IMG/VR virus record: IMGVR_UViG_3300023184_009405
Direction: 5' to 3' (one strand)
Length of the DNA stretch: 64,000 nucleotides
From: an uncultured virus (IMG/VR IMGVR_UViG_3300023184_009405)
Taxonomy: Duplodnaviria; Heunggongvirae; Uroviricota; Caudoviricetes
The position numbers were made by a program, and so were the translations under genes. The notes beneath the pieces were generated by a model. The model searched no databases. It was not told the origin of the DNA and saw only the letters and a program-made list of their open reading frames with translations. Positions within the stretch are counted from its first letter, which is position 1. The number at the start of each line of letters is the position of its first letter. Below, piece by piece: positions 11,784 through 54,078 of this stretch.

Positions 11784-11885
11784 AATACTCCTAGTATCAT
11801 AAGAAATTTTCGTGCTATAATTATAATAGTGGTTTTAATTTAATTTAAACTACAATAAGTAAAATTGATTATTTTTGAGGTAAAA

Positions 11886-13955: not shown

Positions 13956-13958
13956 CAT

Positions 13959-14171
13959 ATGACACCAAGTAATTATTGGTTAGGAAGGCTTTGCACAAAA
14001 GATGATCTTAAAAAACTCGATGATTATTTGATGGAAGCTTGGTCTAATGATGCAACTGTTGACGAAGTCTTGTCTAACATGCCAAGTGAAATTAAATACT
14101 TTTTCTTGCAATTAAAAATAGGGTGTCCAAATCCTGCCAAAGATGGCATACAAATTACTTTTGATATTTAG
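13959..14171 (+). CDS. Small hypothetical protein within the prkA operon
   Basis: 70-aa ORF tightly packed between prkA and yeaH. Confidence 0.6.
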   Translation: MTPSNYWLGRLCTKDDLKKLDDYLMEAWSNDATVDEVLSNMPSEIKYFFLQLKIGCPNPAKDGIQITFDI

Positions 14172-14183
14172 AAAGGGGTTTTA

Positions 14184-15380: not shown

Positions 15381-15389
15381 GTCAATAAA

Positions 15390-20565: not shown

Positions 20566-21140
20566 TCTAAATTATTTATTATTTTTTGTATTTCATTCAT
20601 TATTTCTTTTGTTAATACATCAGCTACTTTTTCATAGGTAGCACTTGGATGAAAATCAACATAAATTTTTATTCTGTGATTGTGAGGTTCAAAATCTTCA
20701 AGTTTTTTCAGATAGTGTTTTCTCATTCCACCTACCTCTGGTATTGTTTTGGCATAATCTAATTTTGATTGATAATCAGATTGTGCTTCTTCTTTTTCTT
20801 TTGCTATACCCATGTGATAAAAATCATTTATATTCACAGGTTTATCGAAATTTTTAAATTTATAATTCTTGTAATCAAGTAAAGCTTCGTCATGGTTGAA
20901 ACTATCATCAATTTCAGTTAACGATAGAAATAATGTAACATCTATGTCTTTTAATTCATTTTTATTGGTTTTATATGAAATGACAAAATCTTCAAAATCA
21001 GGATGATCTGTTTTTGGGTTTTTATTTGAGAAATATTTTTGAATTGCTTTTTTAATGATGGATTCAGAATCTTTTAGAATAACAGGATGTACCGATGCTT
21101 CTAAATAAAGTTTATTGTAAAAATCGTAAAAACTTCTCAT
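20562..21140 (-). CDS. Hypothetical protein with FYDFYNKLYLE N-terminal motif
   Basis: 192-aa ORF, AAGGA RBS; lies between the dnaE halves. Confidence 0.7.
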   Translation of the reverse strand: MRSFYDFYNKLYLEASVHPVILKDSESIIKKAIQKYFSNKNPKTDHPDFEDFVISYKTNKNELKDIDVTLFLSLTEIDDSFNHDEALLDYKNYKFKNFDKPVNINDFYHMGIAKEKEEAQSDYQSKLDYAKTIPEVGGMRKHYLKKLEDFEPHNHRIKIYVDFHPSATYEKVADVLTKEIMNEIQKIINNLD

Positions 21141-21185
21141 GCTTTTCCTTATTAATTGGTTGTCTAAATTATATTAATTTTATTG

Positions 21186-21203
21186 AATCATTGACCAATG
21201 ATT
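21186..21203 (-). promoter_or_regulatory. Bacterial SECIS-like hairpin
   Basis: UGA + 11 nt + AAUCAUU-GGUC-AAUGAUU; GGUC occupies positions 22-25 counting the U of UGA as 1. Confidence 0.7.
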
Positions 21204-22000
21204 TAAAATTTACCTCATCCTTTTTTAGACTTCTTCATTTCCATTTCTTCTGGTTGATTCTCTGGGTCTTCGATTGTAGTAATAATATCTTCTACATCAG
21301 TTTCGCCAGTATCAATATTTGTATCTCCTTCGTCTTCTTCACGATTATCCTCTTCTTCACCATTACTGATTTTTTCGAATTCTGGGAATTTCATCATAGC
21401 TTTGCACATTTTACCAAAGCAACCCTTACGCCTTGCTTCATGCATTAAAGCTCTTACGATATGGGGGTTTTTATTCATTACATAAACTAAATATTGAATT
21501 GCTTGGATTGGATCTGGATGGGAATTACCTGCATAGTAAGAAGTAATATGTGGAGCAATTTCATTTTCGCAGCCACAATGTTCATTTACCATTGTATTTA
21601 TAAAATCTTTAGTAGAAAAATCTTTAGTTGCTTCTATAAATGATTCATTATTTAATTTTGTAAAATTTACAATGTTATCTTTATCACCAACATTAGCAAG
21701 ACCATTTTCTAATTCCTTTGCAGAAGGTTGTTTAGCAGGTGCATAATAAGGATTTGGAGATGGTTTTACAGATTTTGGAACATCATAGCCTAAATTTTTA
21801 GAAATGTTTTTTTCTGGAGATTTGGGCTGTGAAGTTGGTATTTTATTCTTGTGTGCCAATGTTTTTTCATAATTATCAGCAGATACCTTTGAAGGATCTT
21901 TGTTGGTTTTTGAAATATCAAGATCAGCAGCTAAATTATCTGGCTTTGATTTAATTTTCTTTTTATTATCGAAATATTCGCTAAATTTTTTGAAGCTCAT
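21203..22000 (-). CDS. Protein with FKKFSE N-terminal motif; candidate selenoprotein ending ...KKSKKG-U-GKF (261 aa if UGA is a stop, 265 aa if read through)
   Basis: GGA TGA GGT AAA TTT TAA followed by the SECIS-like hairpin; TAAATA and AAGGGG upstream; internal CGC and C.....C. Confidence 0.7.
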
Positions 22001-22097
22001 GTTTATCCCCTTTTAAAATAAATTCTTATTGTATTTATGCTTTTTTGTGCTAAAATTAAAAGAATTATTAATAAAAAGGATTTAGAAAGGATTTAGC

Positions 22098-24641
22098 ATG
22101 TCAGAACAAGAAGTTTTGAAAAATTTATGCTTTGAAAATCTCAAAGTAAAAGTAAATCAAGATGATTACAAATTATATTCAAAAAGGCTAACCAATGAGC
22201 TTATTCAAATTGAAGTACAAGAAGAAACTAAATATTTTTTAGAATTATATAATATTTGTAAGAAATATGAAAAAAATCAAAATAATCTTATTGTTCCTTG
22301 GCTTTTAAATATTTGCTCTGATTTTAATATTAGTGAGGAAGCCAATTATAAGATGGGTGAATTACCAGATATTGATATAGATTATTTGCCACAAGTAAGA
22401 GATTATTTAAAAAATGAATGGGCTATCAATGAATTTGGCAGAGAATATGTTTGTAATATTGGAAACTATGGAACTTTTGGTCTTAAATCTACTTTCATTG
22501 ACATGGCTAGGGTTCATGGATTGGATAGAGGTGAAATATTAAATATAACTAAACAATTAAGACTTAAAGATGATGAAGGTCATGCCTTGGGATTTGAAAA
22601 AGCTTTAGAATTATATCCTGAATTGAAGATTTATTGTGAAAAATATCCTGATATTGCTTTGGCTGTTCAAAAATTGCTTCATAGAAATCGTTCTATGGGA
22701 AGGCATGCTGGTGGATTAATTATATCTTCAGAAAGGATTGATAATTTTGTTCCTCTTGCAAAAAATGCAAAAGATGAAACTTGTGCTAGTGCATGGGGTG
22801 AGGGATTGCATGGACAAGATTTAAGCCCTGTTGGTCTTATTAAAATGGACATGCTTGTAATTGATGTTTTGAATCAAATAGCATTAGCTTGTAAAATGAT
22901 CAAAGAGAGACATGACATACAAAATATTTCTGCTAATGTTGGAGAATGGGATTGGAGTGATTTAAGTTATTTAAACGATGAAGTATGCTTGAAAGCTGCC
23001 AGCGATGGAGATTTAAAAGGAATATTTCAATTTGATGGTGAAGGCATTAGAAATTTAGCAAGACATGCAAAAATAACTTCTTTTGATGATTTAGCTGCAT
23101 TAAATGCACTTTATAGACCTGGTTGTTTGTTAATGGGTATGGATAAAGCTTTTGCAAATAGAAAAAACAAAAGAGAAGATTATGAAATCCATCCATTACT
23201 TAAGCCAATTCTTGGAAAAACCTACGGAGTAATTTTATATCAGGAACAAGTCATGCAAGTTTTAAATGTTGCAGGAAGTATTCCTTTGCGTGATTGTTAT
23301 CAAGTGTTGAAGGCTATTTCTAAAAAGAAAGGATCAATTTTTGAAAAATATAAAAATATATTTTTAGAAAATGGAAAAATAAATTTAGGCTATAACGATG
23401 AAGAAATTAAAAATCTTTATGATTACCTTTTAAGTTTTTCTGAATACGGCTTCAATAAAAGTCATGCGTATGCTTACACATACATATCTGCACGACAGCT
23501 TTTTTTAAAATGTTACTACCCAATTGAATTTTTCTGTGCTTCTTTAATCACTGAAAAATCTGAATTAAAAGCAAAGGAAATGATAGTTGAAACAAATAAA
23601 AAAGGTATAGAAGTCTTGCCTATTTCTATAAATGCTTCTAATGTTGATTATGCAATTCAAGAAGGTAAAATTACAATTGGTTTTTCAAATATAAAAGGAA
23701 TAGGTATTGAGAAAGCCGAAAGAATTGTTGCGAACAAGCCATATATTGATTTATTTGATTTCTTACAGCGTTATGGTTCAGATGCAAATGTTTTAAAATC
23801 TTTGATTGCCTTGAATGTTTTTGCTGAATTTGAAAAAGATAAAACCAAAGAACAAATTTATATTTATTGGCTTAAATATTGTTACTTAGAGAAAAACATA
23901 AAAGATAAAATCAAAAGAAATCAAGTTTCTTTTGAAAATTTAAAAGAGAAAACAAAAGAGTTTTTACCAAGCAATTATTATGAAAAGATGCCATTTAAAT
24001 CTTCGGCATTTCAAAAATTGATTGCTTACTTTGAGTCTTTGAAAGAGCCTGAAAAATACAAAACTTCTATAAGTGGTCTAAAAAAAATATTAAAAAGTCT
24101 TCAAAGAATAGAAGATTATAAGCCAGAGAGCATCGTCAGAAAAATGGTTGAAGATATTCCAGATAATAAAGTTACCATAGACAAAGAATACATTGATTCT
24201 TTGTCACAAAATAATTATTGCGAAGAAAAATATTATGGTTTCATATGGAAGACAAATATTGAAACATCTCCTGATTTTATTGGTGGTTATACTGTAGAAG
24301 CATACAACCAATTGATTGAAGATGGTTATACTTTTGGAGTTTTAGAATTAGAAATTGAAAAAATAGAAAAAAGAAAAGGTCAAAAGAACAATTATTATCA
24401 AGTAACAGCATCTGATTTTAATTGTGAAAAAATAAAAATAAACATTTGGATGGATGATTATGAATTTTTTAAAGAAGAATTAAAACAAAGTAACTTAATT
24501 AAAGTACAACTTGAACCACCATCTGGTGGATTTCCTACATATTCTTTGAAGAGATTGTCGTGGGAAGAAAAAAGATCGAAGAAAAGGACAAAAAGTTCTG
24601 ATTTTAGAATTGTTTTAATGAGGAAGCAGATAAATGATTGA
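22098..24641 (+). CDS. dnaE: DNA polymerase III alpha, C-terminal half (catalytic palm, thumb, fingers, HhH, OB-like)
   Basis: LPDIDID, GRHAGG, LIKMDML, GIFQF, ALYRPG, YQEQVM, YGFNKSHAYAY, IKGIG. Confidence 0.93.
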   Translation: MSEQEVLKNLCFENLKVKVNQDDYKLYSKRLTNELIQIEVQEETKYFLELYNICKKYEKNQNNLIVPWLLNICSDFNISEEANYKMGELPDIDIDYLPQVRDYLKNEWAINEFGREYVCNIGNYGTFGLKSTFIDMARVHGLDRGEILNITKQLRLKDDEGHALGFEKALELYPELKIYCEKYPDIALAVQKLLHRNRSMGRHAGGLIISSERIDNFVPLAKNAKDETCASAWGEGLHGQDLSPVGLIKMDMLVIDVLNQIALACKMIKERHDIQNISANVGEWDWSDLSYLNDEVCLKAASDGDLKGIFQFDGEGIRNLARHAKITSFDDLAALNALYRPGCLLMGMDKAFANRKNKREDYEIHPLLKPILGKTYGVILYQEQVMQVLNVAGSIPLRDCYQVLKAISKKKGSIFEKYKNIFLENGKINLGYNDEEIKNLYDYLLSFSEYGFNKSHAYAYTYISARQLFLKCYYPIEFFCASLITEKSELKAKEMIVETNKKGIEVLPISINASNVDYAIQEGKITIGFSNIKGIGIEKAERIVANKPYIDLFDFLQRYGSDANVLKSLIALNVFAEFEKDKTKEQIYIYWLKYCYLEKNIKDKIKRNQVSFENLKEKTKEFLPSNYYEKMPFKSSAFQKLIAYFESLKEPEKYKTSISGLKKILKSLQRIEDYKPESIVRKMVEDIPDNKVTIDKEYIDSLSQNNYCEEKYYGFIWKTNIETSPDFIGGYTVEAYNQLIEDGYTFGVLELEIEKIEKRKGQKNNYYQVTASDFNCEKIKINIWMDDYEFFKEELKQSNLIKVQLEPPSGGFPTYSLKRLSWEEKRSKKRTKSSDFRIVLMRKQIND

Positions 24642-27652: not shown

Positions 27653-27988
27653 ATGAGAAGAAAATATAATGTCAGAGTTGAAGTTAAAGGTTATCATTAC
27701 AATTCTTCAAGCACGACAACAGAAAAACAATTTAAAATTTTAATGTCAGAATTTCGCAAAGCTTGTCATGCTTCTGGTATTATTAAAGAAATGAAGAAGC
27801 GTGAATTTTATGAATCTCCAAGCGAAAAGAAAAGAAGACTTAAAAAAGAACAAGAATTAAATTTGTTTAAACAAAAAATGAAGGAAAGTTTTGTTTCTAG
27901 TGGCAATGGTTCTAATATAAGTGGATCTAATTTCAGTGGACCTAATAATAGCGGTAACAGTTTTAATAAAAAACCAAAAGGCAAGTAA
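27653..27988 (+). CDS. rpsU: Ribosomal protein bS21 with Asn/Gly/Ser-rich C-terminal extension
   Basis: FRKAC..SGIIKEMKKREFYESPSEKKRR. Confidence 0.88.
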   Translation: MRRKYNVRVEVKGYHYNSSSTTTEKQFKILMSEFRKACHASGIIKEMKKREFYESPSEKKRRLKKEQELNLFKQKMKESFVSSGNGSNISGSNFSGPNNSGNSFNKKPKGK

Positions 27989-27990
27989 TA

Positions 27991-28257
27991 ATGCGACCTA
28001 TTAAAAAAGAAAAGAATTTTTGGGTTTCTCTTGATAATGAAGATTACGAAAAGCTAAATATTTTGGCTGAATCTAAAAATATTCCATTAAAAGAATTTGC
28101 TGGAAGCATTTTAAAGAAAAATTTAATTTGCGACAAAGAAATTGCTGTAATTTTAAAAATACCAAAGGAAAAAATTAGTTCCACGGAGAGCTTGCAAGAA
28201 TGGATGAGTCAGCAAACAAAAGTATTAATTGGTTTATTAAGCAAAAAAAAGAACTAG
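27991..28257 (+). CDS. Small hypothetical protein (possible ribbon-helix-helix)
   Basis: VSLDNEDYEKLNILA...PLKEFA..IL. Confidence 0.55.
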   Translation: MRPIKKEKNFWVSLDNEDYEKLNILAESKNIPLKEFAGSILKKNLICDKEIAVILKIPKEKISSTESLQEWMSQQTKVLIGLLSKKKN

Positions 28258-28742
28258 AAGTAGTTTCTGCTTTAAATATCCCAATTAAAGAAGATGTTTT
28301 ATATGCTAAAGATCAGAATCTTATAGAGATAGCCAAAATTTCTTTGTTAATGCAAAATATTTGCTTGAAAGAAAATGGAGTTGGTTTATCTGCTGTGCAA
28401 CTTGGAATACCTTATAAGATTTTTATTGCTAAAAATTATGATATATCAAATGAATTTTATACTTTTGTAGATTGTCAATATGAAGGCATTGGCAATAAAA
28501 ATACATCTATTGAAGGATGTTTAAGTTTAAAAACCAAATCAAATCAGATTAAAAGATATAAACTTGAGAGATTTCCATCAGTTGTATTAAAAGGTCTATA
28601 TTTTAGCTTTGAAAATAACATGAATTTAATTCCTTTTGAAAAACAATATGATGGCTTTTTCTCAAGCATTCTTCAGCATGAAATAGATCATCAAAATGGC
28701 ATTTTGATTTCTGATATTGGAAAAGAAATGGATTTATATTAA
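28200..28742 (+). CDS. def: Peptide deformylase
   Basis: GVGLSAVQLG, EGCLS and QHEIDH motifs; exact start uncertain. Confidence 0.92.
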   Translation: MDESANKSINWFIKQKKELEVVSALNIPIKEDVLYAKDQNLIEIAKISLLMQNICLKENGVGLSAVQLGIPYKIFIAKNYDISNEFYTFVDCQYEGIGNKNTSIEGCLSLKTKSNQIKRYKLERFPSVVLKGLYFSFENNMNLIPFEKQYDGFFSSILQHEIDHQNGILISDIGKEMDLY

Positions 28743-29002
28743 TGCCATTATCTTTAAAGCAAATTGAATATATTTGTTTGCATGAAAATACCGATGGTAA
28801 AAAATGCAGATATTTGGCAAGAGATTCTAAAAAATCTAATAATTGGATTTGCTTAAAAAAAACAAATAAAAGACTGCTTATAGATAGAGAAGTTAATGAT
28901 TATAAATTAACAATGAAAAATTATATGACAGAAGAAATGCCTCCACTTGGAGATAACTGCGAAGGTTTTACAATAATGAAGCATTTAACTCAAGGCATTT
29001 GA
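28742..29002 (+). CDS. Cys-containing hypothetical protein
   Basis: 86-aa ORF, TAATG coupling. Confidence 0.65.
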   Translation: MPLSLKQIEYICLHENTDGKKCRYLARDSKKSNNWICLKKTNKRLLIDREVNDYKLTMKNYMTEEMPPLGDNCEGFTIMKHLTQGI

Positions 29003-29022
29003 AAAGTTTTTTAAAAAACTTA

Positions 29023-29050
29023 TTGACAATAAAAAATATTGAAATATCAT
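29023..29050 (+). promoter_or_regulatory. Sigma70-like promoter
   Basis: TTGACA-16 bp-TATCAT. Confidence 0.6.
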
Positions 29051-29103
29051 CTCTGTAAAGCTAAAGATTTAGCTTATTTAACATTTTAAGAAAGGATTTC
29101 AAG

Positions 29104-29481
29104 ATGATTAATTCTTTTGCCGAAGTTGAAGATTTTGATGAAGAAGGCATTGACGATAGTATTGTAAACTATTTTTATAATGCGATTAGATCGTACTTTA
29201 AAGATAAAGTTGATCAAAATCAAGTTCCTTTTTTAAATAAATTTAATCACTTTCCATCTGATGAAGATATTAATTTTATTAAAGAAACTAACTTGTCAAT
29301 AGTATTAGATTATTGCTACCCTTTGCTTAGTAAATTCATTAAAGAAGATGAAAACTTAGGTAGTGTTACATCTGATGTTAAAATTGTACTAGATATATTA
29401 AATGACATGTCAAGAAAGAATGTACCAAAAGAAATTTCAGCAGGAATGCTATATTATTTGATAAAACATTGTTATAATTAA
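29104..29481 (+). CDS. Hypothetical protein
   Basis: 125-aa ORF, AAGGA RBS. Confidence 0.7.
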   Translation: MINSFAEVEDFDEEGIDDSIVNYFYNAIRSYFKDKVDQNQVPFLNKFNHFPSDEDINFIKETNLSIVLDYCYPLLSKFIKEDENLGSVTSDVKIVLDILNDMSRKNVPKEISAGMLYYLIKHCYN

Positions 29482-29489
29482 GGTATTTT

Positions 29490-29795
29490 ATGCATGAAAA
29501 AGAAATGATTTTTCTGTGGGGTAATTTCGAAGAAGATAAATTACCCCCAGAAAAACAGTTTTTAAAAAAATACTTTAAAACAAAACCTCAAAGAATATTT
29601 TTGAATTATTATAATATTTTTCAAGAAAAATCAAATTTTATAGATCATACTGGTATTTTTATTTCAAAAACATTGATTTATGATCTTGAATCTAAATATA
29701 ATAAATTATTAGAAGTTCACAGTGAAGCAAAATTAAACTTCGATTTTGATAAAATATCTAAAATTGAATCAGGAAAATATAAGTTTGAAAAATAA
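29490..29795 (+). CDS. Hypothetical protein
   Basis: 101-aa ORF. Confidence 0.65.
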   Translation: MHEKEMIFLWGNFEEDKLPPEKQFLKKYFKTKPQRIFLNYYNIFQEKSNFIDHTGIFISKTLIYDLESKYNKLLEVHSEAKLNFDFDKISKIESGKYKFEK

Positions 29796-30195
29796 GCAAA
29801 TAATTACACAGAAATTAATAAGCAATCTTAATATAAAATTTTACAAAGGCAAGACGGTTATTTATATTTATTGTGTTAATAAATTGCATGAAAGTAATAA
29901 TTTCACAAAAATTAATTGTCAAAATTTAACACCAATTACTTCTCATGTTTATGAGATTTCAAATAATACTATTAATTTATTGAATCATGATTTTGAGCTT
30001 GTTGGAAATATTGATTTTGTAATGAAATATAAATTTAAAAATTGTTCCATGTCATATCAAGCAATGCCAGTGCCAAATAATTTAATTTATTCCCATTTAA
30101 ATTTAAAATCAAAGAATAAATATAATATGTTTAAGAGAAAGTATAATAAAAAAGGAATTTATAAAATAGAATTTTTTCAATTAATAAATATCTAA
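29746..30195 (+). CDS. Hypothetical protein (start uncertain)
   Basis: 149-aa ORF. Confidence 0.5.
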   Translation: MIKYLKLNQENISLKNKQIITQKLISNLNIKFYKGKTVIYIYCVNKLHESNNFTKINCQNLTPITSHVYEISNNTINLLNHDFELVGNIDFVMKYKFKNCSMSYQAMPVPNNLIYSHLNLKSKNKYNMFKRKYNKKGIYKIEFFQLINI

Positions 30196-30198
30196 ACT

Positions 30199-30948
30199 AT
30201 GTCAAATTGTAATTCAAACGGTTGTAATTTTAATTATTATAATGGCAGTAGCAATTGCTATGATCCATGTAGTGGTTTAACTACTTGTTATGATTTTATC
30301 ATAAAAAGACACGATGCCATACCAGAATTTAAATTAGAAATAACTGATTGTGATGAGCCTATTGATTTGACTAATTTAATTGCAGAAGCAAATATGTGGA
30401 GTTGTGCAAAATTAAAATCTAACATAACAGATGATCAAACTATAATACAGTTCGCAGATAATATAGGATTTGATCAAATAATTCAAAATACAATTATTCA
30501 AGCTGGTCTTGGTAGAAATTTTGAAAGAATGAATGTAATAGGATTTGATGAAGAAAAAAAAGAAATTTATGTTGAGCGAGGATATAAAAACACTACTCCT
30601 TTTCCTTGGGAAAAAGGAGCAAGTTTAAGGTTGTTAAGATTTTTAAATAACCCAGCTATTACCGAGATGACTTTTGAAGATATTGCTAATGTAGATGGAA
30701 CTATATCCAAGAACCAACTAGCACATAGTTATTTGGTTTATCGCTGGAATCCAGAAGATACTTGCTTAGCTGGTTCTTTTTTCTTTGAATTTAAATTATT
30801 AAAGATGCTTGATTTAGGCACATCTCAGCCTCCTATTCCAAGCTATTCTCCTTGTGACTGGGGACATGGTGTTCAGTGGACAAGAAGGTTTCCAATTGAT
30901 AAAGATGGTTTTGTAATTCAAGTTTATAATTCTCCAACTGGTGAATAA
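30199..30948 (+). CDS. Probable virion structural protein (baseplate BppU-like)
   Basis: FIIKRHD..P.F......PIDLT, V.RG..NT, Y.W...DT..AG.F..EF, FP; TAAATA immediately upstream. Confidence 0.55.
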   Translation: MSNCNSNGCNFNYYNGSSNCYDPCSGLTTCYDFIIKRHDAIPEFKLEITDCDEPIDLTNLIAEANMWSCAKLKSNITDDQTIIQFADNIGFDQIIQNTIIQAGLGRNFERMNVIGFDEEKKEIYVERGYKNTTPFPWEKGASLRLLRFLNNPAITEMTFEDIANVDGTISKNQLAHSYLVYRWNPEDTCLAGSFFFEFKLLKMLDLGTSQPPIPSYSPCDWGHGVQWTRRFPIDKDGFVIQVYNSPTGE

Positions 30949-30955
30949 CTAATTT

Positions 30956-31483
30956 ATGTTTAATAAAAATTTCAAGCATCGTACCAACTATAATATTAAA
31001 TCTTCATCGGTAAGGGTATTTAAAGAGCAACAATCTTTAGGAATTTTGCCTATTGATCAAGCCATAAAAATAGCTTTTGATGAAAATTTAACGCTTGTAG
31101 AATTAGTTCCAAATGCTAAGCCTCCTGTTTGTCATATTATGGATTATGGCAAATATTTATATGAAGAGAAAATTAAAGAAAAAGAAAAAGCAAGGAAACA
31201 AAGAGAGTCTGTTACTTTGATTAAGGACATTAGGCTATCTCCTGTGATTAGTGAGCATGATATAGAAACAAAATTAAATAATGCTATTGTATTTTTAGAA
31301 GATCATAAAAAAGTTCAATTTAATATGCAGTTTAAAAGTAGGCAAATTTACACGGGTAAAGAAGATGGCCTGAAAATTATGCAACGGATTATTGATGGGT
31401 GTGGCATTCGTGGTAATGTTGAGTATGGTCCAAAGTTCGAAGGAAATAAATTAATTTGTAGAATCACACCAAAACAGCTATAA
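30956..31483 (+). CDS. infC: Translation initiation factor IF-3
   Basis: N..I....VR, LVELVPNAKPPVCHIMDYGKYLYE, I.EHD..TK; ATG start. Confidence 0.93.
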   Translation: MFNKNFKHRTNYNIKSSSVRVFKEQQSLGILPIDQAIKIAFDENLTLVELVPNAKPPVCHIMDYGKYLYEEKIKEKEKARKQRESVTLIKDIRLSPVISEHDIETKLNNAIVFLEDHKKVQFNMQFKSRQIYTGKEDGLKIMQRIIDGCGIRGNVEYGPKFEGNKLICRITPKQL

Positions 31484-31518
31484 TTAATTAGTTTAATTTA
31501 TATGCAAAGGAATTTAAA

Positions 31519-31854
31519 ATGTCTAAAGAATGTTGCGGTGGAAATACTAAAGGTTCTTCTGAATTAAAATCTTTAATAGCTGTAAAACCAGCTGGTAATC
31601 AAGTTTTATTAGAACTTTTAACTGCTCAAGAAGTTTTTGGAACCAAGATTATTGTTAAGGAATCAAAAACTTATAAAGAATTTCAAGCTATTGTAATAGA
31701 CGAAGGCCCATTAGCTAAATGCGATCAATATGGATTTAAAATCGGTGATCGTGTAATCTTGTCTGGCAATGGTGTCCCAGTGCCTAATCTTGATAATACT
31801 GGGCGTGATAGGGTTTTAATGGAACCAAATTGCGTAAAAGCAGTATTGGTTTAA
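31519..31854 (+). CDS. groES: GroES-like co-chaperonin
   Basis: VKPAGNQVLLE, VI..GP, FKIGDRVI, I/V.AV C-terminus. Confidence 0.75.
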   Translation: MSKECCGGNTKGSSELKSLIAVKPAGNQVLLELLTAQEVFGTKIIVKESKTYKEFQAIVIDEGPLAKCDQYGFKIGDRVILSGNGVPVPNLDNTGRDRVLMEPNCVKAVLV

Positions 31855-31858
31855 TAAA

Positions 31859-32809
31859 ATTAATGATTATTATTCGATCCTTGGTTTAGATAGTAATTCC
31901 AATAAGGATGATATTGTTTCTGCTTATAGAAATTTAGTAAAACAATATCATCCTGACAGGAACATTGGCGATAAAGAAGCTGAAGGAAAATTTAAAAAAG
32001 TACAAGAAGCTTATGATTCATTAATAGACCAGCTTAAAAACCAAGAAGATTCTATAGAAATACAATTTGATATATTCTCAGAAAACAAAACAGAAAAAAT
32101 TTGTGGCAAGGACATTTCATACATATGCGATATATCCTTGCAAGAAGGTTTTTTTGGAATTGTAAGAGAAATAATTTTTAATAAACCGAAGTTGTGTGAT
32201 GGTTGTAATGGTGTAGGATTTAAAAATATTGACAGTTGTATTCACTGTAATGGCTCAGGAAAAATTAAAAAAATAATTCAGCAGCCATTTAACTTTGAAT
32301 TATTATGTCATTTCTGCCAAGGTAGTGGTAAAGCATATAAAGATATTTGTTCAATTTGCAAGAGTAGAAGATTTTTTGGTCAAGAAATAGTAAAATTAAA
32401 TTTAAAAATTCCTGCTGGTATTAATGAAGATCAAAATTTATTAATTGAAGGGCATGGAGAACCATCTTCAGATGGCAAGAATGGAAATCTTGTAGTTTCA
32501 ATTAGATTTAAAAAAGATGAATTATTCACTAAAAATAATTTAGACTTGCATTTGGATTTATTTATTCCTTATTCAACATTAGTGTTAGGAGGCAAAATAA
32601 TAATTCCAACTATTGAAAACGAAACAATCGAGATTGAAATCCCAGAAGGAACACAGGTTGGTACTAGTCTTAAAATTAAAAATAAAGGTTATTTTAATTT
32701 AAATAATAAAAAACACAGAGGCGATATTATTGTAAAAATTAAAGTTAATGTTCCAAGAGAAAACATTAATTATGAATTATTTAAATATCTTAAACAAGGC
32801 GGATATTAG
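31859..32809 (+). CDS. dnaJ: DnaJ chaperone (J domain, Zn finger, C-terminal domain) with no ATG/GTG/TTG start; ATT start proposed
   Basis: In-frame sequence upstream of the track ORF (32138) reads I-N-DYYSILGL...YHPDRN...EGKFKKVQEAY; CxxCxGxG repeats follow; in-frame TAA at 31835. Confidence 0.85.
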   Translation: MNDYYSILGLDSNSNKDDIVSAYRNLVKQYHPDRNIGDKEAEGKFKKVQEAYDSLIDQLKNQEDSIEIQFDIFSENKTEKICGKDISYICDISLQEGFFGIVREIIFNKPKLCDGCNGVGFKNIDSCIHCNGSGKIKKIIQQPFNFELLCHFCQGSGKAYKDICSICKSRRFFGQEIVKLNLKIPAGINEDQNLLIEGHGEPSSDGKNGNLVVSIRFKKDELFTKNNLDLHLDLFIPYSTLVLGGKIIIPTIENETIEIEIPEGTQVGTSLKIKNKGYFNLNNKKHRGDIIVKIKVNVPRENINYELFKYLKQGGY

Positions 32810-46324: not shown

Positions 46325-46705
46325 ATGATAATAAGCTTTGATTTTGATGGAACATTATGTTGGATTAACAAGAAAAATATTTCTATATTTCGTAGGAATA
46401 TCAAATTATTTAATATTTTAATAAAACATTTAAAAAATAAAGATGAAGTAATTATCGTTACTTTCAGAAATCCTGATAACGAAAACGAAGAATTTAAAAT
46501 AAAAGAAAATAGAGTTCTTATTAATGATTATATAAAAAAATATAATTTAAATATTAATAAAATCATATTTACAAATCACAAGCCTAAGAAGAAATATTTA
46601 TTGGAAAACAAAGTTAATATTCACTATGATGATTGTGTTGATACAATAAAAAGCTTAATAGGTACTAACATTAAAGGCATTTTAGCTGAAAAGAAAATAA
46701 AATGA
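46325..46705 (+). CDS. HAD-superfamily phosphatase-like protein
   Basis: SFDFDGTL, IVT.R, K, HYDD. Confidence 0.8.
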   Translation: MIISFDFDGTLCWINKKNISIFRRNIKLFNILIKHLKNKDEVIIVTFRNPDNENEEFKIKENRVLINDYIKKYNLNINKIIFTNHKPKKKYLLENKVNIHYDDCVDTIKSLIGTNIKGILAEKKIK

Positions 46706-46986
46706 TTATAATATGTCCATATTGTAGCGTTGATTTAAATAGACCACTTAATGATGGAATATCTTATTGTTCTAATTGCAATCATGAAATTACTGCAAAT
46801 ATCAAAACAAAGATTTTATCATTATTTAAATATATTAAAAAATCTAATAATTTAAATATTGATAAAATTAAATTTGAAACTAGAAGTGAAATAGATGAAA
46901 TACTATTTGCTTATTCTTTTGCCATTGATCATAATTATTCTAATGATGAATTTTCAAAGATGCTTAATAAATTCTTTGATAACTAA
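46702..46986 (+). CDS. Zinc-ribbon protein
   Basis: CPYC...CSNC. Confidence 0.65.
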   Translation: MIIICPYCSVDLNRPLNDGISYCSNCNHEITANIKTKILSLFKYIKKSNNLNIDKIKFETRSEIDEILFAYSFAIDHNYSNDEFSKMLNKFFDN

Positions 46987-47150
46987 TTTCCAAGCGTTAA
47001 TTCTTCTCTAAGAATAGTAAATTCAGTACCAGCAGAAATTCCAATTTTTACTTTCTTATTCTCAATTTTAATAATCGTTATTTTAATTTCTTTTTGATCT
47101 GGAGTATTGATGATAATTGATTCTTCGGATTTTCTTGATAAAACTAGCAT
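46983..47150 (-). CDS. csrA: CsrA/RsmA translational regulator
   Basis: MLVLSRK..ESI.I...VKIGI.A....ILREEL; start at ATG 47150 after AGAGGA. Confidence 0.92.
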   Translation of the reverse strand: MLVLSRKSEESIIINTPDQKEIKITIIKIENKKVKIGISAGTEFTILREELTLGN

Positions 47151-51541: not shown

Positions 51542-51812
51542 GTATAAATTTTATGTTTTTTCTATAGCTTTTTTTATTTTGCTGCTAATGCTTGCAGCAA
51601 CACCAACTACAGAAAACAGTAATAAATTCATAGCTGGAATGTGTTTGGGATTTATGCTTTCACAAGCAGTTTTTCTTTTATGGACACAAGAAAACAAAGA
51701 AGTAAAAGAAGAAGAAAAAGATAATAATATTAATAAAAATCATCCTTACAACAATGAATATTGGTGGAATTCAGGTAATCCACCAAAGTTTACTGATGGA
51801 GATTCAGATTAA
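51516..51812 (+). CDS. Two-TM membrane protein
   Basis: Two hydrophobic helices; start uncertain. Confidence 0.65.
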   Translation: MKVIMIKNKYKFYVFSIAFFILLLMLAATPTTENSNKFIAGMCLGFMLSQAVFLLWTQENKEVKEEEKDNNINKNHPYNNEYWWNSGNPPKFTDGDSD

Positions 51813-51955
51813 TTTTCAGAACATTTGCAATTTTTGCATTTGCAATTTTCGCAAGTGCAGTTTGCACAATCTTCTTTTTTACAAGATTCACAACCACATT
51901 GACATTCAGTAGATTTTTCTTCAAATTCTAAGAATTTCTTAAAGTTTTCGTACAT
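51809..51955 (-). CDS. Metallothionein-like 48-aa protein (below ORF-track cutoff)
   Basis: MYENFKKFLEFEEKSTECQCGCESCKKEDCANCTCENCKCKNCKCSEN; 11 Cys; AAGGAG RBS. Confidence 0.85.
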   Translation of the reverse strand: MYENFKKFLEFEEKSTECQCGCESCKKEDCANCTCENCKCKNCKCSEN

Positions 51956-52095
51956 GTAACTCCTTATCTGACTAAATAGTTTCTAAATTTATATATGTTT
52001 TTCTTTTAAAATAAAATAATTAGTTGTTTTTTGTTTATAGAATTATATCATAACTTATGATACTTATGATAAGTTTAATTTTTTATGGAGTAAAT

Positions 52096-52971
52096 ATGAA
52101 ATCATTGCGATTTTTATTGTTTGTATTATCATTTATTTTATTAATAAATTCTCAAAAAGCTAAAGCTGGTTGAGGTGACCAGCCAGCACTTGGCCAGTTT
52201 GGTCAAAACAAATTAAATAATCAGCCTAAACCAAATAATCAAAACAGGAATATGCCAAATCAATTTAATTCATCTACAGGAACTATTCATATAAGAAATG
52301 AAAATGTGGTTTTTGTAAGTAAAATTGATGGATCTGAAACACCAGGTAGACTTGATCAAAATGGAAATTTTGTACCATTAAACGCTCCTAAAGGACAAGC
52401 AAACAATTCTAATAATTTTGGATTATCAAATAATGATTTAATGTATACAAAAATACAATACAAACAATTATGTAATTGTGATTGCGAAGATATTATTCTA
52501 GCTTTGGATACAAAAGACCCAAGAATAGTAGCAGCAGCTTGTCTTGCTGCTGGTGAATATGATCTTGATGTCAACGAAAGACTAGTTGATTTATTGGGAG
52601 GAGAAAGTGATTTTGTATCTCAGTCTGCAAGGAAAGCATTAATGATGAAATCTTTTTATATGTTAAATAAAATTAAAAAAGAAAATGGAGAAAAGAATAT
52701 TTTTACTTTAAAGCCTAATCCTGTTAATTTAGAGAAATTTACTAATAGTAATAACTTAGACATAGGAAGAGACTATGTTGACTTTGGGCCTATGCAAAAT
52801 GATGATAATGTCGCCATTAATACTTCTGTTTTTAGATGGCAAGCTTGGATTAAAAAAAATGAAAGTAAGTTGTCTGGCATGAAAAATAAAAAAGAAAAAG
52901 TAAGCTTGGAAAAAGAAGAAAAAGTTACTGAATATAAAAAAGAAGATACAAAAGTTCATTCTGTAAAATAA
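52096..52971 (+). CDS. Secreted HEAT-repeat-like protein with in-frame UGA at codon 26 (candidate selenoprotein, 291 aa)
   Basis: GGAG RBS, then MKSLRFLLFVLSFILLINSQKAKA-G-UGA-GDQPALGQFGQ..., in frame with track ORF 52252; C-terminal L.DLL..E...V..SARKAL...DFGP...W..W. Confidence 0.75.
52182..52203 (+). promoter_or_regulatory. Bacterial SECIS-like hairpin
   Basis: GCCAG[C]ACU-UGGCC-AGUUUGGU; bulge at position 17, G22/G23 in loop (U of UGA = 1). Confidence 0.6.
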
Positions 52972-52989
52972 TCTTCAAGCTAATTCATT

Positions 52990-53027
52990 AAAAAAAGCAA
53001 CAATTATTTAAAATTGTTGCTTTTTTT
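52990..53027. terminator. Intrinsic terminator
   Basis: AAAAAAAGCAACAATT...AATTGTTGCTTTTTTT. Confidence 0.8.
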
Positions 53028-53180
53028 ATTTTAAATTATGTTTTCTAAATTAGCAACCTTATCTAATGTGATATTTTTTAAAAAATATAATAATTTTGTT
53101 GCTTTCTAAATTGTTTTTGCTAACATAAAAATATCAATTGATGCAATGGTTGCATCATGTTTTTGTCAGGAGGATTTGTG

Positions 53181-53465
53181 ATGAAGAATTTTGTGTTTGG
53201 TTTTGCGGTATTGTCTATCTTAGCAATTGCTAATGATAGTTTTGCTGGTTGCCGTGGCTGTGGTCGTTCTGGGCTTGGCATTCGTGCAAATAAAAGCAGT
53301 TGTTCTGCTGCTCCAAAAGCTGCTTGTTCTGCTCCTAAAGCAGCACCTGTTGCTGCTGCACCTGCTGTAACCAAAGCTGCTGAACCTAAAGCTGCTGCAT
53401 CTGCTTGTGCAAATGGTTCTTGTGGAATTGCTAGTGGTCTTCGTGGTAAGCTTCGTCTTCGCTAG
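53181..53465 (+). CDS. Small secreted Ala/Cys-rich protein
   Basis: Signal peptide ...SFA-GCRGC, CS(A)APKAA repeats, CANGSC, Arg-rich tail; AGGAGG RBS. Confidence 0.8.
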   Translation: MKNFVFGFAVLSILAIANDSFAGCRGCGRSGLGIRANKSSCSAAPKAACSAPKAAPVAAAPAVTKAAEPKAAASACANGSCGIASGLRGKLRLR

Positions 53466-53482
53466 GATAATTTTATAAACTT

Positions 53483-53520
53483 AAATCTGTCACAATATTT
53501 AATATTGTGACAGATTTTTT
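53483..53520. terminator. Inverted repeat between convergent genes
   Basis: AAATCTGTCACAATATT-T-AATATTGTGACAGATTT. Confidence 0.75.
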
Positions 53521-53547
53521 ATTAATTATTACTTTTTAAATGTCAAT

Positions 53548-54078
53548 TTAAAGAGAATATATGTAACTATTAATTTTTATAATTTCTTCATTTTTTAAAG
53601 TATTATTTTTACCCATGCCTTTAATTGTAATAGGTAAAAGCAATGGAAATTTTAAGTTGTTATTTTCATAATTATAAGATGTAAACTTATTAGTTTTTAA
53701 AAGTAATTCTCTATAATTAGTATTTTCATCATACTGAAATCCATTATTGTAAAAAGGATATAGATTAAGACTTAGACTTACATCAACTCTAGTTTTGTTT
53801 GATTTTTTATTAATAAAAAATCCTACAATTACAGAAAATAAAGAATGAGAATAAAATTCTATATTTTTACGATATTTAAATAAATTATTGATTTTTGGAC
53901 AAAGATATGTATCTGGAAAAAAAGTAGTGTAAATATAAGCAACTTCAGTTTCTCCTTCAAGAAAAGAATATTCATTTTTTTTCAAAGCATAATAATTTTT
54001 AATACCATCTTTTTTGAATTTAATAATAAATTCATTTGTTTTTATTTCAGGTAGATATTTTTTTTCTATAGGTTTCAT
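53548..54078 (-). CDS. Hypothetical protein
   Basis: 176-aa ORF. Confidence 0.6.
   Translation of the reverse strand: MKPIEKKYLPEIKTNEFIIKFKKDGIKNYYALKKNEYSFLEGETEVAYIYTTFFPDTYLCPKINNLFKYRKNIEFYSHSLFSVIVGFFINKKSNKTRVDVSLSLNLYPFYNNGFQYDENTNYRELLLKTNKFTSYNYENNNLKFPLLLPITIKGMGKNNTLKNEEIIKINSYIYSL

What the first reader, a model, noticed from the sequence alone, without database searches (positions are those of the whole stretch)
52087..52254. Signal peptide separated from its protein by an in-frame UGA with a SECIS-like hairpin
A GGAG RBS and ATG 52096 encode a clean signal peptide ending AKA, then G-UGA-G, then 26 open codons running in frame into the 239-aa track ORF. A 25-aa signal peptide alone has no obvious use, so readthrough is the simplest reading. 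The locally GC-rich downstream sequence folds as GCCAG[C]ACU-UGGCC-AGUUUGGU, with a bulge at 17 and G22/G23 in the loop, matching fdhF geometry. A competing hairpin (GCUGGU/ACCAGC) would enclose the UGA itself. The next gene (53181) has signal peptide-G-C at the equivalent position, which supports Sec/Cys at +2 of the mature protein; a lipobox-like A-G-U is speculative.
Basis: partly seen in the sequence, partly recalled or inferred. Interest (0 to 1): 0.88.

Follow-up and report, generated by a model that had tools for sequence, protein, structure and literature searches.

The report
Likely selenocysteine codon in phage gene
A gene for an exported protein in an uncultured freshwater phage-like genome keeps a 'stop' codon right after its export signal in every relative examined, and the evidence points to that codon being read as the rare amino acid selenocysteine, something I found no report of for viruses of bacteria.

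Summary
ATG 52096 opens a 25-codon signal peptide, then TGA 52171-52173, then the frame runs open to TAA 52971 (291 codons). It is neither an error nor a recent mutation. All 9 sequences that cover the codon (window plus 8 metagenome loci, down to 44% protein identity) have TGA. All 25 Trp codons in these genes are TGG. Elsewhere in this lineage TGA alternates with TAA at gene ends, so it is a normal stop. Database homologs showing 'W' are code-4 gene calls of the same TGA. In remote homologs the TGA column aligns with the first Cys of a [C]-x-N-G-x-C-P motif; related phage clades have U-x4-C. One Cys form (TGC) lies on a 274-kb viral contig and has no local RNA structure. Around the TGA sits the most stable 56-nt RNA segment sampled in the window. 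It holds two conserved hairpins with three compensated pairs. The downstream hairpin meets three of the four published bacterial SECIS criteria; the fourth (energy) is borderline. Best reading: selenocysteine insertion by host machinery (about 0.6). Open points: host and Sec machinery unseen, few lineages. Rival: readthrough or suppressor decoding (about 0.2).

The parts
52087..52090 (+). Shine-Dalgarno-like GGAG, 5 nt before the ATG
   Evidence: Sequence. The same ATGGAGTAAAT-ATG arrangement appears upstream of the start in L001-L004 (translations and contexts).
52096..52170 (+). Signal peptide, codons 1-25 (n-region K2/R5, hydrophobic core, c-region A-K-A then G). Cleavage after A24 is inferred from the -3/-1 rule.
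   Evidence: AF2 models residues 2-19 as a helix. All TGA-form relatives keep a hydrophobic N-terminus ending in A-[G/E] before the TGA. SignalP was not available.
52171..52173 (+). In-frame TGA, codon 26, proposed selenocysteine codon
   Evidence: TGA in 9 of 9 sequences covering the codon. No variant in contigs of other studies. Aligns with Cys in remote homologs.
52165..52187 (+). Hairpin A: GCUGGU (52165-52170) pairs with GCCAGC (52182-52187). In the window's MFE fold it extends to U52171-A52181 and G52172-C52180, so the UGA lies inside the stem.
   Evidence: RNAalifold predicts it independently. Pairs are kept in 7 of 8 sequences, with one compensatory U-A to A-U change at two synonymous sites in L008. 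Energy is -14.0 kcal/mol in the window, -15.5 in L001, -8.1 in L008.
52190..52206 (+). Hairpin B, the SECIS candidate: UUGGCCA - loop GUU (52197-52199) - UGGUCAA, 23 nt between UGA and loop
   Evidence: 98.2% of cells paired in 8 of 8 sequences, with two pairs changed on both sides in L009. Energy is -7.0 kcal/mol alone. CAG-TTT-GGT is invariant in 6 of 6 compared sequences although CAG is the rarer Gln codon.
52096..52971 (+). Whole gene read through the TGA: 291 codons plus TAA. Layout: signal peptide, disordered N-terminal tether with U26, small beta domain (about residues 63-94), HEAT-like helical domain (112-196), DYVDFGP...W..W motif, and a long C-terminal helix (238-281).
   Evidence: mean pLDDT 80.1. 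Only weak HEAT/alphaRep fold matches. No Pfam, NCBIfam or PHROG family.
52989..53028 (+). Intrinsic-terminator-like hairpin plus T-run after the gene
53181..53465 (+). Conserved downstream partner gene: a 94-aa secreted Ala/Cys-rich protein (signal ...SFAG-C-RGCG, C-terminus ...C-ANGS-C-GIAS) carrying the same C-x-N-G-x-C motif
   Evidence: The Cys-form phage locus L012 has the same gene pair, with the partner ending C-ANGN-C-PIP.
51809..51955 (-). Divergently transcribed 48-aa Cys-rich (12 Cys) metallothionein-like protein, conserved next to the gene
   Evidence: tblastn finds it in L001-L005, L008 and L009. No Pfam, NCBIfam or PHROG hit.

Best explanation
52096-52971 is one gene of an uncultured, 27% GC, freshwater phage-like genome, most likely a huge phage. 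Its codon 26 (UGA, 52171) is most likely decoded as selenocysteine by the host's SelB/Sec-tRNA(Sec) system. That system would be recruited by the conserved hairpin B (52190-52206; loop GUU, 23 nt after the UGA). The product would be exported. Its signal peptide would be cut after A24 (inferred), leaving G-U-G-D... at the tip of a flexible N-terminal tether. The tether is attached to a small beta domain, a HEAT-like helical domain and a long helix. The Sec takes the place of the first Cys of a [C]-x-N-G-x-C-P motif that marks the mature N-terminus of this otherwise uncharacterised family. The same motif closes the small secreted protein encoded just downstream. That suggests a thiol/selenol redox or metal/chalcogen-binding tip working in the cell envelope. 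Shown: the conserved in-frame TGA; TGA is otherwise a stop in this lineage; the two conserved RNA hairpins; the Cys-for-TGA correspondence; the gene pair. Inferred: Sec as the inserted residue, SelB binding to hairpin B, the cleavage site, and the function. The role of hairpin A, which buries the UGA, is unknown.
For: (1) TGA is present in 9 of 9 sequences covering the codon: the window and L001-L005, L008, L009, L010. L008 and L009 are syntenic relatives whose ClpX is 93% and 68% identical to the window's. The protein itself is down to 44-48% identical. (2) TGA is not a Trp codon here. The two conserved Trp sites and one more are TGG in 25 of 25 cases across 12 sequences, never TGA. (3) TGA is a real stop in this lineage. 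No other gene in the 64 kb is joined by an in-frame TGA. Two genes end in TGA in the window but in TAA at the same place in L008. (4) 'W' in database homologs comes from code-4 calling. P0003 equals the table-4 translation of L001 letter for letter. Full-length 'W' forms sit on short contigs, and truncated forms of the same clusters sit on 16-30 kb contigs. (5) Sec/Cys correspondence. Remote homologs with the same architecture (E 1e-4 to 1e-8 in a profile search of 1.84 billion representatives) carry C-x4-C at the mature N-terminus: P0031, P0036, P0050, P0054, P0055. TGA-form clades have U-x4-C (P0013, P0016/L009) or U-x5-C (P0047). MAFFT puts the TGA column on the first or only N-terminal Cys in 9 of the 10 Cys-form sequences of that alignment, even with W left in. 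L012, on a 274,625-nt IMG/VR viral contig, has TGC there. (6) RNA. RNAalifold finds hairpins A and B unaided, and 3 pairs are changed on both sides and kept. The covariation score is reached by 1 of 500 shuffles and by none of the slid controls. The segment is the most stable of 660 sampled in the window. It is in the lowest 1-3% of its own locus in L001, L005 and L008. The Cys-form gene has no such structure: -6.2 kcal/mol against a locus mean of -7.5. (7) Hairpin B meets three of the four criteria of the published bSECIS consensus (PMC13188914, Fig. 2 legend, passage read). Its loop is 3 nt (3-9 allowed), its stem 7 bp (4-16), G followed by U is first in the loop, and spacing is 23 nt, or 26 in L009 (16-37).
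Against: No selA, selB, selD or tRNA-Sec was seen. The window and 11 loci hold 0 tRNAs, and no Sel family appears among the 77 ORFs scanned. The host is unknown, so its ability to decode Sec could not be tested. Only about five lineages have DNA available. The three compensated pairs come from two lineages (L008, L009), which is too few for a formal covariation test. Hairpin B alone is -7.0 kcal/mol in the window and -3.6 in L009, just short of the -7.5 consensus limit. L009's segment is not unusually stable for its locus (25th percentile). Hairpin A is not aligned in L009. The QFG codons inside hairpin B are also constrained as protein. The Cys-form homologs are remote (21-30% identity), and their N-termini align by a short motif. 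The window's own clade has lost the second Cys (U-GDQP-A). The DNA of P0013, P0034 and P0047 was not seen, so their 'W' = TGA is inferred. My searches found no precedent for a phage selenoprotein. That lowers the prior.
Confidence: 0.6

Rival explanations
1. Programmed readthrough or suppression with a standard amino acid. The UGA would be read by near-cognate tRNA-Trp, perhaps helped by the local RNA structure, or by a phage-encoded UGA suppressor tRNA expressed at a certain time. The stop would then act as a gate or attenuator that keeps the exported protein low or late.
For: Public gene calls translate it as W. Stop-codon recoding with suppressor tRNAs is described in phages and proposed to time late genes (bioRxiv 10.1101/2021.08.26.457843; title and abstract start seen in the listing). 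Only 64 kb of a probably much larger genome is visible, with no structural genes, so a suppressor tRNA and further recoded late genes could lie outside it. No Sec machinery was seen.
Against: The W calls are code-4 translations of TGA. There is 1 in-frame TGA in about 80 genes. TGA and TAA interchange at gene ends. TGG never alternates with TGA at Trp sites (0 of 25). The position corresponds to Cys, not Trp, in remote homologs. A gate needs no particular residue or conserved flanking A-G / G-D context, and does not explain why Cys forms lack the RNA structure.
Confidence: 0.22
2. Hairpin-directed insertion of cysteine, not selenocysteine, at the UGA by a tRNA-Sec-like tRNA-Cys.
For: The abstract of PMC5389517 (passage read) reports a delta-proteobacterial tRNA-Cys with an 8/4 structure that mimics tRNA-Sec. 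The position is Cys in homologs.
Against: No such tRNA was seen here. It would be a rarer mechanism than ordinary Sec insertion. Nothing in the data favours it over Sec.
Confidence: 0.04
3. The UGA is a true stop. The 25-codon signal-peptide ORF would be a separate leader or mini-protein, and the downstream part would be untranslated (a decaying gene) or made separately without an export signal.
For: Table-11 gene callers give exactly this (P0002, P0006-P0009, P0011, P0012). An ATG exists at 52252 in the window.
Against: ATG 52252 is not conserved, and truncated calls start at different residues in different relatives. The 26-80 codons between the TGA and those starts are conserved as protein and free of stops in all 9 sequences. 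No second stop or frameshift has accumulated even at 44% identity. Remote homologs have the signal peptide fused to the same domains in one ORF (P0017, P0031 and others).
Confidence: 0.06
4. Sequencing or assembly error, or a recent nonsense mutation in this one contig.
For: None beyond the prior for any single in-frame stop.
Against: The same TGA is found in 8 of 8 other loci from several metagenomes and in contigs of two further studies.
Confidence: 0.01

Closest known systems
Bacterial SECIS-directed selenocysteine insertion (E. coli fdhF paradigm; bSECIS consensus model as given in PMC13188914, Fig. 2 legend, read)
   Same: An in-frame UGA is conserved among orthologs and corresponds to Cys in homologs. 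A small hairpin lies in the coding sequence just downstream, with G-U at the start of a small apical loop, 23-26 nt from the UGA.
   Different: The gene is carried by a phage-like genome, not a cell. No Sec machinery was seen. The hairpin energy is marginal. A second conserved hairpin buries the UGA itself. The Sec sits at position 2 of the mature exported protein in a non-enzymatic-looking HEAT-like protein, not in a known redox enzyme.
Stop-codon recoding in phages (TAG to Gln, TGA to Trp with suppressor tRNAs; bioRxiv 10.1101/2021.08.26.457843 and PMC9523058, titles and abstract starts seen)
   Same: A phage gene needs a stop codon to be read as sense, and public pipelines call it under code 4.
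   Different: Recoded phages carry many in-frame stops and avoid that codon as a terminator. Here there is one TGA in about 80 genes, TGA ends other genes, and TGG is never swapped for TGA.
UGA readthrough giving the A1 protein of RNA phage Qbeta
   Same: A phage uses a leaky UGA to make a longer protein.
   Different: In Qbeta the short product is the major functional protein and the residue is Trp. Here the short product would be a bare signal peptide, and the position is Cys in homologs.
Selenoproteins of viruses of eukaryotes ('viral selenoprotein' occurs in PMC6769590 and ten other papers, listing only)
   Same: A virus would borrow its host's Sec machinery.
   Different: Those are eukaryotic viruses with 3'-UTR-type SECIS elements. 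In that search none of the five phage or bacteriophage selenoprotein phrases occurred in any paper.
Sec at the mature N-terminus of exported proteins of cellular bacteria, noted earlier in this scan (e1-2088385, e1-5153878, e1-2125329, e1-4672906; AI notes, unchecked)
   Same: A signal peptide is followed within a few residues by UGA, with U-x-x-C or similar tips and metal-related contexts.
   Different: The protein families differ (outer-membrane barrels, lipoproteins), they are in cellular genomes, and there is no sequence similarity to this gene.

Membership tests
Bacterial-type selenoprotein gene (SECIS-dependent UGA decoding) | In-frame UGA conserved among orthologs | tested here: met
   9 of 9 sequences covering the codon have TGA. 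It is unchanged in contigs of two other studies.
Bacterial-type selenoprotein gene (SECIS-dependent UGA decoding) | Homologs with Cys aligned to the UGA | tested here: met
   The TGA column aligns with the first or only N-terminal Cys in 9 of the 10 Cys-form homologs of the alignment. C-x4-C corresponds to U-x4-C. L012 has TGC. Caveat: these homologs are remote and the alignment rests on a short motif.
Bacterial-type selenoprotein gene (SECIS-dependent UGA decoding) | bSECIS consensus: 3-9 nt apical loop, 4-16 bp upper stem, G in the first two loop positions, 16-37 nt from UGA to loop (PMC13188914) | tested here: met
   Hairpin B has loop GUU, a stem of 7 bp (6 in L009) and spacing of 23 nt (26 in L009), and is present in 8 of 8 aligned sequences.
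Bacterial-type selenoprotein gene (SECIS-dependent UGA decoding) | bSECIS consensus: MFE of -7.5 kcal/mol or lower | tested here: inconclusive
   Hairpin B alone is -7.0 (window) and -3.6 (L009). The 60 nt from the UGA fold at -8.8 to -14.1 in the 9 sequences.
Bacterial-type selenoprotein gene (SECIS-dependent UGA decoding) | Structure supported by covariation | tested here: inconclusive
   3 pairs are changed on both sides and kept, and the score is reached by 1 of 500 shuffles. But there are only 8 sequences and the changes come from two lineages.
Bacterial-type selenoprotein gene (SECIS-dependent UGA decoding) | selA, selB, selC, selD available in the decoding cell | not testable with these tools
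   No whole genome is held and the host is unknown. None was found in the window or loci. The records behind L008-L010 are not searchable.
Bacterial-type selenoprotein gene (SECIS-dependent UGA decoding) | Selenium actually incorporated | not testable with these tools
   This needs 75Se labelling or mass spectrometry.
Stop-codon-reassigned phage (TGA read as Trp, code 4) | Many in-frame TGAs across genes | tested here: not met
   One candidate in 64 kb. None other in the 12.8-kb loci L008 and L009; an apparent one in L009 was a wrong frame.
Stop-codon-reassigned phage (TGA read as Trp, code 4) | TGA not used as a terminator | tested here: not met
   9 of 81 long frames end in TGA. TGA in the window corresponds to TAA in L008 at two gene ends.
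Stop-codon-reassigned phage (TGA read as Trp, code 4) | TGA and TGG interchangeable at Trp positions | tested here: not met
   25 of 25 Trp codons are TGG, and the recoded site is TGA in 9 of 9.
Stop-codon-reassigned phage (TGA read as Trp, code 4) | Suppressor tRNA with anticodon UCA in the phage | tested here: inconclusive
   0 tRNAs in the window and 11 loci, but the genome is incomplete.
Bacterial lipoprotein (lipobox; consensus [LVI][ASTVI][GAS]-C recalled) | Lipobox immediately before the Cys/Sec | tested here: not met
   Positions -3 to -1 are KAG, SAG, QAG and KAE in TGA forms. In Cys forms they are DPE, QGF, RAN, QQQ, PYG and NAP.
HEAT-repeat proteins (Pfam HEAT_2 / HEAT) | Match to a HEAT profile or fold | tested here: inconclusive
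   The window protein has 0 Pfam families. Remote homologs P0026, P0052 and P0039 match HEAT_2, P0026 below the cut-off. Atlas neighbours are HEAT clusters at 0.89-0.92. Foldseek gives only weak alphaRep/HEAT rows, the best at E 0.076.

The most novel reading that the evidence does not exclude
A lineage of freshwater huge phages encodes a genuine selenoprotein. It would be an exported HEAT-like protein whose mature tip carries Sec in place of the first Cys of a C-x-N-G-x-C motif, made by hijacking the host's SelB/tRNA-Sec through a phage-borne SECIS hairpin. That would be a selenoprotein family borne by a virus of bacteria. It would also tie expression of a phage envelope-directed module (Sec protein, small Cys-rich secreted partner, metallothionein-like peptide) to the host's selenium status and Sec competence.
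Probability: 0.55. Interest if true: 0.85.

Novelty: new variant of a known kind. Interest (0 to 1): 0.72.

Why it matters
If the reading holds, selenocysteine decoding is not confined to cells and a few viruses of eukaryotes. My searches found no paper using any of the phage or bacteriophage selenoprotein phrases. The terms phage, virus and viral occur 0 times in the main text of a 2026 review of prokaryotic selenoproteomes (PMC13188914).

It would mark these phages' hosts as Sec users, which is a new kind of host clue. It would define an uncatalogued selenoprotein family with Cys and Sec forms in different huge phages. It would also give a compact natural SECIS (17 nt) to test.

There is a practical point as well. 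Public protein sets hold this gene either truncated (table 11) or with a false Trp (table 4), depending on contig length. Selenoprotein and recoded-phage surveys could both misfile it.

Tried and rejected
**Genome-wide TGA reassignment (code 4 or code 25).** Rejected.

**A second in-frame TGA in the gene downstream of the L009/L010 homolog.** It was the wrong reading frame of the partner gene.

**A second recoding candidate at 47095.** It is antisense to a csrA gene.

**Frameshifting at the TGA.** The +1 frame hits TAA within 15 codons (read).

**Searches for relatives that found nothing:**
- tblastn against 50,697 phage records.
- Viral contigs with the protein and with alignment A1.
- Viral contigs with P0034.
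- Genome contigs with A1.

**Host clue through the GMP-reductase-like gene in genome contigs.** Nothing found.

**Rfam at E up to 10 over 51800-53600.** No hit at the site, and no bacterial SECIS family among the hits.

**Pfam, NCBIfam and PHROGs for the protein.** 0 families.

**Foldseek against PDB.** No match at E of 0.001 or better.

**tRNA-Sec.** None in the Cys-form viral record G001. The records behind L002 and L008-L010 are not held.

**The look-up of sequencing runs.** No RNA holder listed, so nothing can be said about expression.

**Complex prediction, 239-aa ORF with the mature partner protein.** No verdict (score 0.02). This is not evidence either way.

**Earlier-findings look-ups by place and by sequence of this gene.** Nothing.

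**Literature searches for phage selenoproteins.** No report found. Subscription-only papers and bioRxiv supplements were not searchable.

**Not available or not done.** SignalP was not available. No covariance model was built, because the window holds no other candidate to search for.
Full report
**What is in the sequence.**
- The window is 27.4% GC and densely coded under table 11.
- At 52087-52090 there is a GGAG, and at 52096 an ATG.
- Twenty-five codons follow that read as a signal peptide (MKSLRFLLFVLSFILLINSQKAKAG). Then comes TGA at 52171-52173.
- After the TGA the same frame stays open to TAA 52969-52971. Read through, it gives 291 codons.
- Table 11 yields only the 239-aa ORF that starts at ATG 52252.

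**What kind of genome this is.**
- No whole genome is held for the window.
- The 64 kb carries a DnaE-type polymerase split into two genes (19192-20565 and 22098-24641) and an intein-bearing SpoVR next to PrkA and DUF444.
- It also carries PhoH, GP88, HNH and TnsA-like endonucleases, bS21, peptide deformylase, IF3, a DnaJ C-terminal protein, ClpX, a sigma-70-type factor and several glycosyltransferases.
- 25 of 65 ORFs match PHROG families. There are no tRNAs, and no ribosomal operon among the ORFs scanned with Pfam.
- I read it as part of an uncultured huge phage of fresh water. The holders of the DNA are lake and freshwater metagenomes. No structural gene lies in the window, so 'phage' is an inference from gene content.

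**The TGA is real, old and specific to this codon.**
- A search of 5.8 billion proteins gave 15 relatives. Six are full length and show W at the position.
- The DNA tells another story. In all 8 metagenome loci that cover the codon (L001-L005, L008, L009, L010 of 11 loci found; L006, L007 and L011 are cut short) the codon is TGA.
- P0003 is letter for letter the table-4 translation of L001.
- Within clusters, full-length 'W' forms come from contigs of 0.7-2.9 kb, and truncated forms come from contigs of 16-30 kb. The W is therefore a by-product of per-contig choice of genetic code.
- L008 and L009 are syntenic relatives of the window phage, with ClpX 93% and 68% identical. The TGA has thus survived divergence at which synonymous sites have largely turned over.
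- Contigs from two further studies keep it too.
- The two conserved Trp residues of the protein, and one more in L009, are TGG in 25 of 25 cases.
- No other gene in the window is joined by an in-frame TGA. The only other structured candidate, 47095, is antisense to a csrA gene.
- TGA is a true terminator in this lineage. Two genes that end in TGA in the window end in TAA at the same place in L008.
- These results exclude assembly error, recent nonsense mutation and genome-wide reassignment (code 4 or code 25).

**Translation must continue through the TGA.**
- The stretch between the TGA and the first table-11 start is conserved as protein (GD[QK]PA[LIV]GQFGQNK, then a variable number of NNQPKGF-like repeats, then FNSSTGTIHIRN). 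It has no stops in any of the 9 sequences.
- ATG 52252 is not conserved, and truncated database calls start at different residues.
- Remote homologs have signal peptide and body in one uninterrupted ORF (P0017, P0031 and others).

**Which residue is inserted: the Cys correspondence.**
- A profile search of 1.84 billion representatives gave 42 proteins.
- The remote ones share the architecture: a hydrophobic N-terminus, a short Cys motif, a linker, a HEAT-like block (D.R.KAAA...V.Q.AR..L), then DFGP...W..W.
- Five carry C-x4-C at the mature N-terminus: P0031 C-VNGN-C-P, P0036 C-LNGN-C, P0054 C-NAPN-C, P0055 C-RNGQ-C and P0050 C-FDTI-C.
- Others carry a single or double Cys there (P0040, P0048, P0052, P0051).
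- The TGA-bearing clades read U-ANNQ-C-PP (L009/P0016), U-GDKP-C-PP (P0013) and U-DNNKI-C-PP (P0047). The window clade reads U-GDQP-A-L.
- MAFFT places the TGA column on the first or only N-terminal Cys in 9 of the 10 Cys-form sequences, even when the residue is left as W.
- One Cys form could be seen as DNA. L012, on a 274,625-nt IMG/VR viral contig, has TGC. It is followed by a small secreted protein ending C-ANGN-C-PIP.
- The window gene is likewise followed by a small secreted protein ending C-ANGS-C-GIAS.
- A UGA conserved among orthologs that corresponds to Cys in homologs is the classical signature of selenocysteine.
- The weak points are the remoteness of the Cys forms (21-30% identity), the short motif on which the N-terminal alignment rests, and the unseen DNA of P0013, P0034 and P0047.

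**RNA structure.**
- The 56 nt at 52160-52215 fold at -21.0 kcal/mol. The mean of 660 sampled windows is -5.5 (sd 3.1), and none is as low.
- The homologous segments are in the lowest 1-3% of their own loci in L001, L005 and L008. In L009 the segment is only at the 25th percentile.
- RNAalifold on 8 sequences predicts two hairpins unaided.
- Hairpin A pairs GCUGG(U) (52165-52170) with (G/A)CCAGC (52182-52187). In the window and L001-L004 it extends to pair the UGA itself (-14.0 and -15.5 kcal/mol). L008 keeps it through a U-A to A-U swap at two synonymous third positions (GCT...CCA to GCA...CCT). It is not aligned in L009.
- Hairpin B is UUGGCCA-GUU-UGGUCAA (52190-52206). It is present in 8 of 8 sequences with 98% of cells paired. 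L009 changes both sides of two pairs (G-C to A-U, U-A to A-U) through amino-acid replacements on both arms.
- The covariation score is reached by 1 of 500 column shuffles and by none of six slid controls. With eight sequences and two informative lineages this is suggestive, not proof.
The alignment shows uncompensated mismatches in L005, L008 and L009. It may still form transiently once the ribosome has opened hairpin A, but comparison does not support it.
- The Cys-form gene in L012 has no special structure at the same place (-6.2 against a locus mean of -7.5). That links the structure to the TGA.

**Comparison with the SECIS consensus.** The consensus was read in PMC13188914, Fig. 2 legend.
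- Apical loop 3-9 nt: hairpin B has 3.
- Upper stem 4-16 bp: it has 7 (6 in L009).
- G in the first two loop positions, mostly G[G|U]: it has GU.
- 16-37 nt between UGA and loop: it has 23 (26 in L009).
- MFE of -7.5 kcal/mol or lower: it has -7.0 alone in the window and -3.6 for L009's upper stem. The 60-nt folds from the UGA give -8.8 for L009 and L010 and -9.6 to -14.1 for the other seven sequences.
- Three criteria are met and one is borderline.
- Rfam has no matching family at the site. A preprint passage read says bacterial SECIS elements are poorly represented in Rfam.

**What could not be tested.**
- Sec decoding needs selA, selB, selC and selD. None is in the window or loci. The rest of the phage genome and the host are unknown, and attempts to reach them failed.
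- This is the main gap, and it keeps the readthrough or suppressor-tRNA rival alive.

**The protein.**
- AF2 (34-sequence alignment, mean pLDDT 80.1) gives a signal helix (2-19) and a disordered tether (22-59) that carries U26.
- It then gives a four-stranded beta unit (63-94), a helical repeat domain (112-196), the DYVDFGP motif and a 44-residue C-terminal helix.
- Foldseek finds only weak HEAT/alphaRep likeness. Atlas neighbours are HEAT clusters, commonest in Planctomycetota.
- Remote homologs add Met/His-rich stretches and, in P0032, a rhodanese domain.
- The gene sits in a conserved trio with a divergent 48-aa, 12-Cys metallothionein-like peptide and the Cys-rich secreted partner.
- I infer an envelope-located thiol/selenol module for metal or chalcogen handling or for disulfide exchange. 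This is the weakest part of the account.
- A complex prediction with the partner gave no verdict.

**Known or new.**
- The mechanism proposed is the ordinary bacterial one. What would be new is the carrier (a phage), the family (no Pfam, NCBIfam or PHROG model), and the second hairpin that hides the UGA.
- Searches for phage selenoproteins found only selenoproteins of eukaryotic viruses. A 2026 review of prokaryotic selenoproteomes does not contain the words phage, virus or viral in its main text.
- Earlier notes of this scan describe UGA just after signal peptides in cellular bacteria, but none in a phage and none similar in sequence.
- I rate it a new variant of a known kind.

**Verdict.**
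- Observation: confirmed.
Recoding and Sec/Cys are supported; the drawn SECIS fold and the lipobox are not.
- Selenocysteine: about 0.6.
- Readthrough or suppression with a standard residue: about 0.2.
- Cys by a Sec-like tRNA: about 0.04.
- True stop: about 0.06.
- Error: about 0.01.

Noticed in passing
window 46986-47150 (-): A 55-aa CsrA homolog (Pfam CsrA, E 4.5e-17) sits in what the 90-aa ORF list leaves as a gap. It is conserved in L008 and L009 (95% and 80% identity over 55 and 51 aa, rounded). It is a phage-borne post-transcriptional regulator.
   Followed up: partly
window 53139-53157 (+), and L009 about 7026-7044: A perfect 8-bp hairpin (UGAUGCA-AUGGU-UGCAUCA) followed by a U-run lies just before the Shine-Dalgarno of the partner gene 53181. 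It is identical in ten loci. In L009/L010 it keeps pairing through a double change (GAUGCA/UGCAUC to GGUGCA/UGCACC). It could be a candidate attenuator, a terminator-like 5' element or a protein-binding site.
   Followed up: partly
window 51809-51955 (-): A 48-aa peptide with 12 Cys in CxC/CxxC runs looks like a metallothionein. It is conserved and divergently transcribed from the TGA gene in L001-L005, L008 and L009. No family matches it.
   Followed up: partly
window 52210-52250; L001-L005 equivalents: Between the TGA module and the beta domain, the number of NNQPKGF-like repeats varies from about 1 to 4 among close relatives (alignment; sequences). This is a length-variable tether.
   Followed up: no
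window 15390-18215 and 19192-24641: SpoVR carries an intein with a LAGLIDADG domain. The DnaE-type polymerase is split into two genes separated by two minus-strand ORFs of unknown function (20562-21140, 21215-22000).
   Followed up: no
window 11865-18215: A complete PrkA / DUF444 (YeaH-like) / SpoVR trio, a bacterial starvation-linked module, is carried by the phage-like genome.
   Followed up: no
window 27653-32809: A translation and proteostasis block holds bS21, peptide deformylase, IF3 and a DnaJ C-terminal-domain protein without a J domain, with ClpX further on at 48385. An earlier scan note (e1-5652935) describes a similar block in a freshwater T4-like phage.
   Followed up: no
protein clusters of P0013 and P0034: The same gene appears in public protein sets as a full-length 'W' form on short contigs and as a truncated form on long contigs. 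The genetic code was evidently chosen per contig. This artefact could mislead surveys of recoded phages and of selenoproteins.
   Followed up: partly
window 46703 region; L009 87-92: The stop of gene 46325-46705 is TGA in the window and TAA in L008. In L009 it is TGT followed directly by TAA, a one-codon extension with Cys.
   Followed up: no
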